Of a stretch of DNA of 64,000 nucleotides, positions 1-51,904 are shown one piece after another. Origin of the DNA: Octopus vulgaris. Its lineage: Eukaryota. The stretch is from contig OX597821.1 in assembly GCA_951406725.2 (NCBI GenBank), positions 80,228,001 to 80,292,000 on the forward strand, written 5' to 3'. Under the pieces are notes generated by a model. The model saw only the letters and a program-made list of their open reading frames with translations. It was not told the DNA's origin and did no database searches. Every line of letters begins with the position of its first letter. Position 1 is the first letter of the stretch. The position numbers were made by a program, and so were the translations under genes.

Positions 1-278
1 GTTGCTGAATTTCATTAAAATCTAAACAGTAAATATTCAAGACTCATCATATATTGAGATGAATGCTCAAATGATAGCTTTACTGTTCATAATTTATAGA
101 GTTTTTACTGAGATACAAGGAAGGATTATTTCTACCTGCTTTCTAACTTTTCACCCGTTCACCCGTTCTTTCTTCTCTCTCTCTCTCCCTCTCTCTCTCT
201 CTCTCTCTCTCTCTCTCTCTCTCTCTCACTCACTCACTCACTATTTGTCTTTCTCACTCCCTTTATGCTCCTCACTTC

Positions 279-312
279 CTTCTGATGAAGGACTAACTTC
301 CGAAACATTAAG
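279..312 (+). ncRNA. Minimal type I hammerhead ribozyme motif (PLE-type), one mutation in stem III
   Basis: ctt-CTGATGA-a-GGA-ctaact-TCC-GAAAC-ATT-aag. Stem I ctt/aag and stem II GGA/TCC. ATT where the related copy at 971 has GTT. Confidence 0.6.
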
Positions 313-801
313 ACATTTCTCTCTTTCCTTTAAAGCGATAAACCAATAACTTTTTAAAAGTTGTTCCAACTGTGGTGTGTTTCATTGTCCATTATATTTC
401 GTTTTTATCTGCATGCATGTATATATACATACATACATAATTTATACTATGTATTAAATATGTGTGTGTGTGTATGTGTGCGTGTGTGTGTGTGTGTGTG
501 TAGGCGAATTCGGCGAGCTGGAAGAATCGTTAGCACATATATATTTGTTTATATATATATATATATATATATATATAATCTCCGAAGAAGCCTTAGGATA
601 TTTTTGTAAATGTCTCATTTATAACTACATATTGACCTACCATAAATGGCTAATATAAGTAAAATGAGACATACTTATCTACATGGCCGTAACAGCTGTA
701 AGATGTAGTCTACATTTATATGTACTTATATTTACATTCCCTTATATATATTCTACTTATTGTATAACATTACTCTTTTATGTACACTCCTTTATGTACA
801 C

Positions 802-901
802 NNNNNNNNNNNNNNNNNNNNNNNNNNNNNNNNNNNNNNNNNNNNNNNNNNNNNNNNNNNNNNNNNNNNNNNNNNNNNNNNNNNNNNNNNNNNNNNNNNN
901 N
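802..901. other. Assembly gap (100 N)
   Basis: Run of exactly 100 N. Confidence 1.
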
Positions 902-970
902 ACAAACACACACACAAACATGGAACAAGTATAGTCTTATTGGACGCTCGGGAAAGGAAAGAAAGGAGAA

Positions 971-47955: not shown

Positions 47956-48155
47956 TACGAGGGATGCTGAAAAGTTCCTGACTTTAAGGGTATCTTGAAG
48001 TGCCTTGTTGGAGGCCCAACCTTCCTAGTTATTTTTCAGGGCTTAGAAAAACTGAGGTCCCGCTGCAATAAGTGTGTGAATCTGGGGTTGGATAAAACCA
48101 TAATTAACCGATCCTCCTGTTTTGTTTTTTACCCAAATCCAGGAACTTCGTACGT
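47956..48155 (+). mobile_element. Mariner-derived MITE relic
   Basis: Left end TACGAGGGATGCTGAAAAGTTCCTG and partial right end CAGGAACTT..CGTA. Internal peptide [17 protein letters not shown] resembles the mariner transposase C-terminus (GIxKLxxRWxKCI). Confidence 0.6.
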
Positions 48156-51100
48156 ATCTTTTCATCTTTTACTTGTGTCAGTCATAAGACTGCGGCCATG
48201 CTGGGGCACCACCATGAGGAATTTTAGTCGAATGATTGGATCCCAGTACTTCCTTTTCCCAAGCCTGCTACTTACTTTATCTATCCTTTTTGCCGAACCG
48301 CGACGTTGCAGGGACGTAAACACACCAGCACCGATTATTAAGCGATATATGGGTTGGTGTGCGACTCAGTGGTGAAGCAGTTTTTAACCAGTGAAAAACA
48401 TTTTACAGATCCAATGCAATCCCATACATATTCGAACTTATATAAAATTTACACACACACACACACATACACACACACATACACATACATACAGACATCT
48501 GTGAGTATATGTGTGTGCGTATATATGCATTCATTCATTAAATTAGATTAACTGGGGACTCAGTGTGATAGGTTTAGATGTTTGGATTGCAGAAGCCGTC
48601 AATCCAAATTCGTTCACAAGGCTTGGACCAAGACAAGGTTAGGATGTGTGTGTGTGTGTGTGTGTGTGTGTGTGTGTGTGTGTGTGTGTGTACTGCGCAG
48701 CGGTATTGAAAACGAGACTTCACTGTTGTAAAGTAAACATGCTAACCACCCTGCCATGAGTTCAAAAGTATGTTAAGTTAAAAATTGTCTAAAGTCGTAA
48801 GACGCTCCTGTCCTTGTACTGTCCACCTTCGTGTTTTTTATTTCTGTTTCTTATATATAATTTTGTTTCTTGTATTTACATTCGTGTGGCATCCTGTCTT
48901 TGTTCCGTATACATTCGACCCTCTTTCCAAGAAATCCAATGCCTGTGGCTTGGATTTTCCTTGGGGCTGGCCGGATCGGAGTGATATCGAGATTAAACAG
49001 CCGAAATTACTAAGATGATCCGGTTCCCGACTGAAGATTAGAGGCTTCGAGTGACCCGTCGGTTTTTTGGGTCGTCTCCTTGTGTGTTTTTGCGTTTTTG
49101 TCCCACTTTGTAATTTATATTTTATATTAAATCCTATATATATATATATATGAAGACTTCGCCGAGCAAATTATTTTATTTGCTAAAAACAGTCAGAAAC
49201 CATGGTCCGGGAGATAGATGGTAAATGTTTTTATTTTTCATTCCCTTCAAAGTTTTATCCCTAATAATGGTTTGGACTTTGGCTGCTCCTTCTAGCGTGC
49301 CAGGAATCCTCTCACGGATACCTCTTATGTGTTTAAATGTACACTGTATGTATATATATATCAAGTGTCTCAGAACGAAACTATGACGTTGCCTTTGGAT
49401 TGTCTCTCTTCAAGGAACAGCTGGTAAATGCTCTTGTTTGTTTGTTTTTTTATGCAAGCTTCACCTGTCCATGTTCTCTGATGCTGTCGCGAAGAAAGGC
49501 AACGGCTGATACAGTCTGGAACCAAAGTTTACCGAATACGTTGTCGTCAGCATGCTAATACCTAGAACAGCTATCCTAGCTCTAATATTCCCGCTAATTC
49601 ATTGCTCTGGACTAGTAATTTATTTATGGACACAATAAATGGCATAAAATTCCTCAAGGACATACTCTGGCCTCTGATCTTCAGATGAGTTACTACTTTT
49701 CTCTGTCCTTTCTACTGGTTTTATATTGAGTTCTGCTCCTGAGATTTGGCTGGTCTCATGCGACCCGATTCAAACATTCCAGTATTGACTGTTTCCCCTT
49801 CTCCTATCAACCTTGCTCTGTCTACAATCCCACACTTACTAATCCCTATGACTAGTCCTTTCTAAAAACCTCATCCCTCTGGAATGCCCCCTCTGCTCAT
49901 GTCTTCCTCCCCCGCACAAAGGCCCAGCAGAATATTAATGGCATCAATCTGATGGATCTAATAGACCCTACACAGGCCATAGATACTGCACCTTTCTCCA
50001 GACCATGCAAATTCCGCTTCATTGTTATACATATGTATACATACCACATTAAACACAGAAGACAATATACTAACGCGCTCACAATCACAAAAGTGTATGC
50101 GTACGTATGAAACGACCAACAAAGTTTTGTGAAAATATATTGAACATGCACAACAGAATAAGGCAGGAAATCGCCACGAAGATAGACTACGAATTCATAA
50201 GTCCCAATACGTCCCATTAAAGTTGAGACAAACATCGTAATTGCCTAAAAACGGGAAACTGAAATGAAAAATAATTTATCTGTCGCTGGAGAGAAATAGA
50301 TTCTTGATCTAGTTTTAAGGTTTTGTCAGAGGTTAACGAGATTAAAGAAATAAATAAAAATAACACGAAGGTTGATGTCGGTGAACAGTTAGAACATTCA
50401 TACATACATACAAGTATATATATATATATATATATATATATATATATATATATATATATATATACATACATACAAGCATATATATATACATACATACATT
50501 CAAGCATATACATATATATATATATATACAAGTATACATATGTACATATATATATATACATACATATATACACACACGTACGCACGCGAGCACACACACA
50601 CACATATACATATATATATATACTTGTATGCACATAATCCTATACACATGCACTTACATGCATACATATGTATGTGTGTGTATATATATATATATATATA
50701 TATATACACATACACATATACATATGGGTAGATCCATATATATATATATATATATATATATATGTAGGTCCCGGGTTGATTCGGGGTTAACCACAGTAAG
50801 TAAGGTACTCAATACATAGCTTCATGAAACAGTACTAGTCCTGTAGAAGCTCCTTCTATATAATAAATATATATATATATATATATATATGGGAGAGAGA
50901 GAGACAGAAAGAGAGAGAGAGAGAAAGAGAGAGATTGGGTCGGCTTATGAATACTTGTAGGCCATGCCTGAAGGATTTGAGAAACACCGTCCGTAAATGA
51001 GTGTTTATTCTGAAATATCTAATTCTTTAACCTGTTTCCCTGTAGGGACGAGGGTCCTGTAAGTGAACCTTCGGGAAAGGCTCAGTTCATCAGTTCGACC

Positions 51101-51568
51101 CAGTACATATGATTAGCTGGGTGATTAATCTATCAGTTCCTTTTTGTTGAACCGCTATGTTGCGACCGTTCAATTACACGAGTATACTGAAGAGACAAAT
51201 GCAAACACACACACACACATACACACACACATACATACACATCTTCATATACATATAAATATACTTATACACATATATGTTTGTATAATATACATGCACA
51301 TATGTATACACATATCATACAAATATATAAACACACACACACACACACACATATAACAACTATATGTTTATATAAATATGTATGCACACACATATATGTA
51401 TACATATATACTTATATGTAAGTCTATATCGATACACATGCACTAATATATATATATATATATATAATTAATCAATATAGGGTGGCAAAAAAAATTTTGT
51501 AGAATTCTTTTGCCACCAGCGGCCTAGTGGGAAAAATTAAATAGTCATAAACCATTTTTACGTTCAAC

Positions 51569-51904
51569 ATCACAATAAGGAACGGCCATAATAGGCCATT
51601 CACCCACTAGAATAACATAAAAGCTTTAACGCAAAATAACATTAATTCCGTAAACCAGGAGAAAATTGAAAAACATTTACCCTGTAATTTCTTAGACGAT
51701 GCACCGTTTCATCTACCGTTTAATGGTAAACTAACCTGATTACCATTAAACGGTAGATGAAACGGTGCATCGTCTAAGAAATTACAGGGTAAATGTTTTT
51801 CAATTTTCTCCTGGTTTACGGAATTAATGTTATTTTGCGGTTAAAGCTTTTGGCTGTTATTTCTAGTGGGTGAATGGCCTATTATGGCCGTTCCTGATTG
51901 TGAT
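51569..51904. repeat. Long inverted repeat, about 160-bp arms, 10-nt loop
   Basis: Loop ACTAACCTGA at 51730-51739. The inner about 100 bp of the arms are perfectly complementary; the outer part has a few indels and mismatches. Confidence 0.97.

What the first reader, a model, noticed from the sequence alone, without database searches (positions are those of the whole stretch)
120..51904. A (TA)n-nested, hammerhead- and palindrome-bearing mini-element system inside the netrin intron
Seen: about ten short (0.1-1 kb) non-coding, mostly mutually dissimilar cassettes sit in or beside (TA)n tracts (about 120-420, 577-700, 902-1068, 16671-17620, 23531-23840, 28335-28540, 39273-39470, 40660-40790, 45980-46167, 48785-49135, 51467-51904). 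Most carry either a hammerhead core or a fold-back palindrome at one end, and a decayed PLE GIY-YIG fragment lies at 10326-10920. Established: Penelope-like elements carry minimal hammerheads in their pseudo-LTRs and often insert with inverted or tandem pLTR fragments. Inference: these are non-autonomous, retrozyme-like PLE derivatives that target or are healed into (TA)n, with fold-back (self-primed) cDNA ends. I am not aware of such a system being characterised in cephalopods.
Basis: partly seen in the sequence, partly recalled or inferred. Interest (0 to 1): 0.8.

Follow-up and report, generated by a model that had tools for sequence, protein, structure and literature searches.

The report
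Split-core hammerheads in Penelope retroelement debris
The short cassettes beside TA repeats in this netrin intron are likely broken-off tail ends of several Penelope-like jumping genes, a known pattern, but one highly repeated tail carries all the core letters of a self-cutting hammerhead RNA in a rearranged order that I could not find in print, and it is predicted, not shown, to cut.

Summary
The cassettes are real: 9 of 11 hold a whole, decayed or half hammerhead, 3 fold back, and 577-700 has neither. They are not one mini-element system. They look like 5'-truncated 3' ends of several Penelope-like element (PLE) families. (TA)n insertion, inverted truncated copies and tails are published, octopus families included (Hydra-1_Obim, Naiad_Obim; PMC8557442). 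There are no tandem monomers, so 'retrozyme' is unsupported. (TA)n enrichment was not significant in an unbiased test (p=0.10).

What is new: cassette 48774-49133, highly repeated in two DNA runs, has hammerhead blocks in the non-circular order S-G-C. Its stem II partner lies upstream, so the core is opened between A9 and G10.1 by two extra helices. By eye, 10 of 39 published Naiad 3' ends have this fold and 4 nematode ones are clean type-CSG hammerheads, although Naiads are described as lacking canonical hammerheads. The paper that found non-circular hammerheads reported them almost only in environmental sequence. Cleavage is untested. Two earlier notes of this scan mention rearranged hammerheads in PLEs on other DNA.

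The parts
244..420 (+). PLE-type 3' fragment with decayed minimal type I hammerhead (282-309); family shared with 902-1067 and 28335-28540
578..720 (.). Listed cassette with no intact hammerhead core and no fold-back; unexplained
902..1067 (-). PLE-type 3' fragment with minimal type I hammerhead (974-1000, extra base after A9, palindromic stem III); 3' end runs into an assembly gap
9984..10325 (-). Likely 3' UTR of the endonuclease remnant, ending at (TA)n; no hammerhead detected; weakly similar to 23530-23700
10326..10729 (-). Frameshifted C-terminal GIY-YIG endonuclease remnant with Hydra-clade motifs; it may reach further 5' (to about 10920-10990, by eye)
16671..17610 (-). AT-rich PLE-type 3' fragment, type I hammerhead with long stem II (16987-17082), (TA)n at both ends, and a second ~20-bp copy of its 3' end at about 16672-16691
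23530..23838 (+). 3' fragment with hammerhead blocks in S-G-C order (stem I 9 bp, stem II 5 bp, one core A missing, stem III partner absent); its 5' end falls at the predicted cleavage site; tentative
28335..28540 (+). PLE-type 3' fragment with decayed minimal type I hammerhead (28418-28445)
39276..39466 (.). Fold-back insertion: inverted truncated copy plus direct copy with ~70-nt extension; hammerhead 3' half with Hydra-like stem III at the fold
40660..40783 (+). Short fragment with decayed type I hammerhead (40698-40727)
45981..46161 (.). Fold-back without spacer and without hammerhead, one arm extended by ~115 nt, (TA)n both sides; class not established
48774..49133 (+). Highly repeated Naiad-like 3' fragment ending at (TA)n
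48912..49053 (+). Predicted split-core non-circular hammerhead: closing helix 48912-24/49040-53; hairpin 48927-64; stem II 48965-69/48998-49002; I-II helix 48970-77/49017-24; stem III 48980-85/49006-11; predicted cut after 48986; stem I 48987-92/49025-30; GAAA 49003-06; CUGANGA 49031-37
49151..49350 (+).
51467..51902 (.). Fold-back insertion, arms ~165 bp, 10-nt spacer, ~100-nt extension on one arm, hammerhead 3' half at the fold, (TA)n both sides
57180..58217 (-). Netrin coding exon (laminin N-terminal domain and first EGF repeat); host gene context

Best explanation
The cassettes are likely 5'-truncated 3' ends of several Penelope-like retroelement families that inserted independently at TA repeats, and the highly repeated one at 48774-49133 carries hammerhead core letters and helices in a rearranged, split-core order that is predicted to self-cleave. 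Inferred mechanism: a PLE GIY-YIG nuclease nicks TA-rich DNA. Reverse transcription starts at one of two sites near the RNA 3' end, which gives copies with or without a tail, and usually stops early, leaving only the hammerhead-bearing end. Sometimes the cDNA end snaps back on itself near the ribozyme's stem II and is copied, giving the inverted arm. In the split-core motif the order is closing helix, hairpin, stem II 5' strand, cleavage-site block, GAAA block, CUGANGA block, closing helix. The closing helix and hairpin would stack and hold A9 next to G10.1 without a direct link. It may fold as a monomer or need a second copy.
For: Shown: hammerhead motifs above chance. Hydra-type endonuclease remnant ending in (TA)n (motifs compared by eye with Fig. 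S7). Asymmetric fold-backs. 3,904 and 2,694 contigs of two DNA runs lie on 48700-49500, with summed word depth up to 602,323 against 56.9 in the flank in X13 (not a copy number). For 49151-49350, other copies end in (TA)n (40 contigs in X13) or a tail (16 in X13, 27 in X15), and 4 of the 15 joints shown (24 in all) change strand. Motif: all seven helix segments pair in the window copy, stem I 5 of 6. The nested part is the predicted minimum-energy fold, z=-2.9, 1 of 200 shuffles as good. A strict descriptor gives 1 hit against 2 of 200 shuffles with any hit (descriptor written after seeing the motif). Majority letters of other copies mend stem I to 6 of 6, swap a G-C for A-U in stem I and a C-G for U-A in the hairpin, and give an AUC triplet. 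By eye the same helix order, with different stem sequences, occurs in 10 of 39 Naiad 3' ends viewed, from five phyla; 9 have G10.1-C11.1 and one a G-U pair. Published: tails, inverted truncated copies and (TA)n bias (PMC8557442); two RT start sites make the tail (PMC11167929); solitary hammerheads from truncated PLEs, some as close opposite-strand pairs (PMC4209133).
Against: No cassette could be linked to an RT gene: no genome is held. Only 2 cassettes were tested for repetition outside the window. Unbiased (TA)n enrichment is not significant (p=0.10). PMC10085705 assumes the CUGANGA block and stem II strand cannot be separated, and this motif breaks that rule. Majority letters also break one hairpin pair and one stem III pair; the stem III partner change is not among the 40 of 86 variant rows shown, and only one loose end shows it. 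The stem I swap sits in CpG context, and variants were not phased. The Naiad comparison is by eye on 400-600-nt excerpts; 24 of 39 showed no non-circular hammerhead; two pairs of the 10 positives are near-identical; Naiad_Esco has a 4-of-5 stem II and Naiad_Bfor a 2-bp stem I. In Naiad-4_Dst stem III and the I-II helix run almost continuously, which is hard to fit in a monomer. Published tails are 30-40 bp; these extensions are 70-115. 23530-23838 resembles the Hydra-type remnant's UTR, so its clade is open.
Confidence: 0.72

Rival explanations
1. Some cassettes are true non-autonomous PLE derivatives (retrozyme-like or SINE-like) with their own fixed ends, mobilised by a helper PLE.
For: Very high repetition of two short cassettes. 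23530-23838 starts at its predicted cleavage site (one case, ambiguous by 1-2 nt). Non-LTR retrozymes derive from PLE ends (bioRxiv 10.64898/2026.07.22.740005). Cephalopod Naiads are described as long inactive remnants.
Against: No tandem monomers with two hammerheads. Depth falls towards the 5' end, and 4 contigs of X15 go on past 48774 with other sequence. No place where many molecules begin was listed (table 6), though contigs are weak for that.
Confidence: 0.2
2. The split-core motif is a conserved hammerhead-derived structure that no longer cleaves and serves as a protein-binding or RT-initiation signal; the cassettes are still PLE debris.
For: A9 is not linked to G10.1. In one PLE, hammerhead cleavage was not needed for insertion in vitro (PMC11167929). 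PLE hammerheads cleave poorly alone (PMC4209133).
Against: Core letters, the cleavage-site triplet and the first stem II pair are kept across five phyla while stems change (by eye). Related Naiads carry intact type-CSG cores.
Confidence: 0.3
3. The palindromic cassettes are MITEs of TA-targeting DNA transposons, or assembly fold-back artefacts.
For: TA flanks; 45981-46161 has no hammerhead and near-perfect arms.
Against: Arms are asymmetric and joined at the centre; two folds sit in a truncated hammerhead; arms differ by about 6% in two cases; strand-changing contigs occur in an independent run for a neighbouring family.
Confidence: 0.07

Closest known systems
Hydra-clade PLEs, including Hydra-1_Obim of Octopus bimaculoides (PMC8557442; section 11, passages, supplement parts 2, 52, 53, 59)
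   Same: C-terminal GIY-YIG with CxxC motif, (TA)n insertion, type I hammerhead near the 3' end, an inverted truncated copy noted for Penelope-13_HM.
   Different: By eye none of the cassettes matches the Hydra-1_Obim 3' end; these look like other families. The remnant's UTR shows no hammerhead.
Naiad-clade PLEs (PMC8557442; passages, supplement part 1 and excerpts of File S5)
   Same: (TA)n preference in cephalopods. By eye, 48912-49053 has the same helix order as ten Naiad 3' ends and is closest in layout to Naiad-2_Movir.
   Different: The paper reports no canonical hammerhead in Naiads, only 'HHR_core' and 'HHR_half_core' flags; it does not describe a permuted fold in the parts I read. No Naiad reading frame is in the window.
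Type-SGC and type-CSG hammerheads (PMC10085705; parts 1, 3, 4, 5 of 8, supplements not read)
   Same: S-before-G block order, short linker from stem I to stem II, extra helix joining stems I and II.
   Different: There the CUGANGA block is continuous with stem II; SGC was found in metatranscriptomes and CSG in metagenomes. Here the block is split, with two added helices, in an animal genome.
Minimal PLE hammerheads (PMC4209133; parts 1-2 of 4)
   Same: Extra base after A9, G10.1-C11.1, palindromic stem III, mostly solitary copies: fits 282-309, 974-1000 and 28418-28445.
   Different: Nothing essential; the window copies are decayed.
Animal non-LTR retrozymes (PMC7229834, passages; bioRxiv 10.64898/2026.07.22.740005, part 1 of 5 and passages)
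   Same: Short, non-coding, hammerhead-bearing, PLE-related.
   Different: Retrozymes are tandem arrays with canonical type I hammerheads that make circular RNA; these are solitary pieces.

Membership tests
Penelope-like element (truncated copies) | GIY-YIG endonuclease coding sequence | tested here: met
   Remnant 10326-10729: 791 unnamed relatives at E<=0.001; 140 of the 150 listed have the CxxC-EK motif; no Pfam hit. Not physically linked to the cassettes.
Penelope-like element (truncated copies) | Hammerhead near the 3' end | tested here: met
   Whole, decayed or half in 9 of 11 cassettes.
Penelope-like element (truncated copies) | Inverted truncated copy and one-sided tail | tested here: met
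   3 of 11 in the window; tails and strand-changing joints in other copies of 49151-49350. Extensions are longer than the published 30-40 bp.
Penelope-like element (truncated copies) | Cassette continues 5' into an RT reading frame in other copies | not testable with these tools
   No genome held.
Penelope-like element (truncated copies) | Multi-copy | tested here: inconclusive
   Met for 48774-49133 and 49151-49350 and for one three-member family in the window; the rest untested.
Hydra clade (endonuclease remnant) | CxxC and CxH motifs, CxCX5C linker | tested here: inconclusive
   CxxC present, CxH decayed, linker frameshifted; best relatives carry the full set. No tree built.
Hydra clade (endonuclease remnant) | Insertion at (TA)n | tested here: met
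   3' end abuts (TA)n at 9959-9983.
Hydra clade (endonuclease remnant) | Canonical type I hammerhead in the 3' UTR | tested here: not met
   None found in 9984-10325; may be decay.
Naiad clade (48774-49133) | N-terminal endonuclease, CxC domain, RT | not testable with these tools
   No reading frame in the window.
Naiad clade (48774-49133) | 3' structure shared with Naiad consensus sequences (my criterion, not a published one) | tested here: inconclusive
   Same helix order by eye in 10 of 39 excerpts; not computed.
Type-SGC hammerhead | Block order S-G-C with stems I and III and core letters | tested here: met
   48980-49037.
Type-SGC hammerhead | CUGANGA directly followed by the stem II strand | tested here: not met
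   At 49031 the 5-bp partner is upstream; a downstream 4-bp option needs a 5-nt insertion. Met, tentatively, at 23572.
Type-SGC hammerhead | Helix joining stems I and II | tested here: met
   48970-77/49017-24, 8 bp.
Type-SGC hammerhead | Self-cleavage at the predicted site | not testable with these tools
   Needs an in vitro assay.
Non-LTR retrozyme | Tandem monomers, each with a type I hammerhead | tested here: not met
   No such array among the 150 of 172 tandem-repeat rows shown (the hidden rows lie beyond 54700) or in the self-BLAST rows shown.
Non-LTR retrozyme | Circular RNA | not testable with these tools
   Only contigs were available.
MITE | Terminal inverted repeats at both outer ends | tested here: not met
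   Inversions are central and one arm is longer.

The most novel reading that the evidence does not exclude
Many Naiad-type retroelements do carry active hammerheads, in non-circular forms: type CSG in nematodes, and a seventh topology, with the core opened between A9 and G10.1, in cnidarians, a ctenophore, an acanthocephalan, an ostracod and cephalopods. One such ribozyme is amplified to thousands of copies in this genome and may work only as a head-to-tail dimer.
Probability: 0.55. Interest if true: 0.85.

Novelty: new variant of a known kind. Interest (0 to 1): 0.68.

Why it matters
If the motif cleaves, it extends non-circular hammerhead permutations from environmental sequence to animal genomes and adds a topology outside the six thought possible. 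It would also explain why many Naiads seemed to lack hammerheads, so 'PLEs proliferate without a ribozyme' would need revising. It is directly testable with short transcripts. The rest of the finding is ordinary PLE debris.

Tried and rejected
Rfam found no hammerhead; its hits were microsatellite-driven miRNA matches. Short-window folding of 7 hammerhead candidates gave no significant z-scores (-0.1 to -1.9), as expected for small or pseudoknotted motifs; only the 156-nt region did. Pfam did not recognise the endonuclease piece, and the word-index search gave 1 unnamed hit. A pattern scan of metagenome contigs gave 4 loci, none similar to the window. No RNA holder was listed on record; the two 'RNA?' contig sets laid say nothing on expression. 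A reading of 23530-23838 as Naiad-derived is left open because its first 170 nt best match the Hydra-type UTR (score 50 against 40 for the next unrelated of 738 windows). A reading of 577-700 as a decayed CSG hammerhead needs three or more changes and was dropped. PMC10162972 gave no passage for my terms, so I did not check which hammerhead variants it describes. The PLE dimer paper of Lunse et al. 2017 is not held; I saw only its title. Look-ups in earlier findings by sequence, place and three word sets gave nothing.
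Full report
Context. No genome is held for this window. A minus-strand netrin exon ends near 57180 at a GT donor; its best relatives are mollusc netrins at 66-67%, and no later exon lies in 1-57180.

Observation. The cassettes exist. A relaxed type I hammerhead descriptor finds 7 hits, 5 in cassettes, and 0 of 60 shuffles reach the observed counts at any defect level. 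Three cassettes are fold-backs with one longer arm. In two, the fold lies at a hammerhead that has lost its CUGANGA half (by eye). Two more hold hammerhead blocks out of the usual order. 577-700 has nothing convincing. Three cassettes are one family. TA flanks are common (both ends 4 of 11, one end 6 of 11), but the window is dense in TA tracts and the unbiased test gives 6 of 8 within 300 nt against 47% (p=0.10).

The ordinary part. PMC8557442 (passages, section 11, supplement) describes 5' truncation, inverted truncated copies, one-sided tails and (TA)n bias for PLEs, and lists Hydra-1_Obim and five cephalopod Naiads. The endonuclease remnant has Hydra-type motifs and its downstream sequence ends at (TA)n. 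PMC4209133 (parts 1-2) reports that most PLE hammerheads are solitary and probably come from truncated copies. PMC11167929 (parts 1-2) shows two RT start sites that explain the tail. Laying four runs on 48700-49500 placed 3,904 and 2,694 contigs from the two DNA runs. Both cassettes there are highly repeated against a single-copy flank. For 49151-49350, other copies end in (TA)n or in a tail, and 4 of 15 joints shown change strand. This is the PLE pattern. There are no tandem monomers, so the retrozyme label fails its main test (PMC7229834 passages; preprint part 1).

The new part. At 48980-49037 the cleavage-site block precedes the GAAA block, which precedes CUGANGA, with stem III of 6 bp and stem I of 5 of 6. 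This is the non-circular order 'SGC' of PMC10085705 (parts 1, 3-5). [quoted passage not shown] The window motif also has the helix joining stems I and II. It differs in one respect: the stem II partner lies upstream (48965-69), behind a hairpin, and the letters after A9 pair with a strand upstream of that hairpin. The nested part is the predicted best fold (z=-2.9). Majority letters from other copies mend stem I, make two double changes that keep pairs, turn two G-U pairs into Watson-Crick pairs (one of them a majority in only some runs) and give an AUC triplet. They also break one hairpin pair and, unless an unlisted partner change exists, one stem III pair. No change at a core letter is among the 40 of 86 variant rows shown. 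Variants were not phased.

Comparison with published Naiads. I read 400-600-nt 3' excerpts of 39 of the 54 Naiad consensus records by eye; each excerpt was assigned to the record before the header shown, by the order of File S1. Ten have the same split-core order (Amil, Anas, Movir-2, Chem-3, Bfor, Plae, Dst-4, Obim, Ovul, Esco; eight independent; Esco and Bfor imperfect). Four nematode records (Nbra-2, Nbra-3, Hcon, Hpol) are complete type-CSG hammerheads with all three stems and the joining helix. One (Ptep) is SGC-like with stem II unresolved. Twenty-four showed no non-circular hammerhead: some have type I-like cores, several stop near the reading frame, and six bivalve, hydrozoan or hemichordate-type excerpts or more show another conserved motif, which earlier notes of this scan call twister-like (not tested here). 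Several positives carry the paper's 'HHR_core' or 'HHR_half_core' flags. This comparison was not computed.

Mechanism. Inferred: nicking at TA, early-stopping reverse transcription, occasional cDNA snap-back near stem II. For the ribozyme I commit to a ring of the CSG/SGC type opened at the A9-G10.1 step, where PLE hammerheads already tolerate an extra base, with the closing helix and hairpin stacking to hold the junction. Where stem III and the joining helix are continuous a monomer looks strained, so a head-to-tail dimer is a live option. 23530-23838 begins at its predicted cut site, which would fit copying of a cleaved RNA, but it is one case with a missing core A.

Print record. Searches for type-SGC plus hammerhead, CSG/SGC plus permutation from 2023 on, non-circular permutations, Naiad plus ribozyme and hammerhead plus octopus returned no paper describing this in PLEs or animal genomes; most of those papers I saw only as listings. 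The library lacks most subscription papers. A 2026 paper (PMC13725137, passages) mentions hammerhead variants with extra helices without detail. Two earlier notes of this scan mention rearranged hammerheads in PLEs on other DNA; I could not see their topology and they are not support.

Verdict. Observation partly confirmed; interpretation partly supported. The system as proposed is known PLE debris. The split-core hammerhead is a new variant of a known kind, structurally well supported and biochemically untested. Interest 0.68.

Noticed in passing
window 49151-49350 (+): A further (TA)n-nested, highly repeated cassette with a truncated type I hammerhead, directly behind 48774-49133; other copies show tails and fold-backs.
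   Followed up: partly
window, e.g. 8286-8671, 18938-19330, 26437-27055, 32265-32645, 34276-34665, 39570-39952, 42619-43048, 52564-52931, 54724-55108: Two abundant interspersed repeat families of about 350-390 bp with many copies in the window; SINE-like by recall, not classified here.
   Followed up: no
window 6669-6968 (+): 99-aa frame that reads like the end of a mariner-type transposase (recalled); no Pfam hit.
   Followed up: partly
window 35203-35565 (+): 120-aa frame that reads like the C-terminus of an RTE-type LINE protein (recalled); no Pfam hit.
   Followed up: partly
window 31108-31155: Small fold-back of about 20-bp arms between TA tracts.
   Followed up: no
window 52825-53026 and 53478-53677: A 200-bp local duplication at 98% identity.
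   Followed up: no
window 802-901: 100-N assembly gap that cuts the 3' end of the 902-1067 cassette.
   Followed up: no
PMC8557442 File S5: bivalve Naiads CGi, Sglo, Olur, Tgra, Pmar; Chem-1, Chem-2; Pfla-2: A second conserved 3' motif without hammerhead core letters; earlier notes of this scan read such a motif as twister-like.
   Followed up: no
window 57174-58331 (-): The stop-free frame ahead of the netrin start has poly-Thr and poly-Ala runs from trinucleotide repeats.
   Followed up: no
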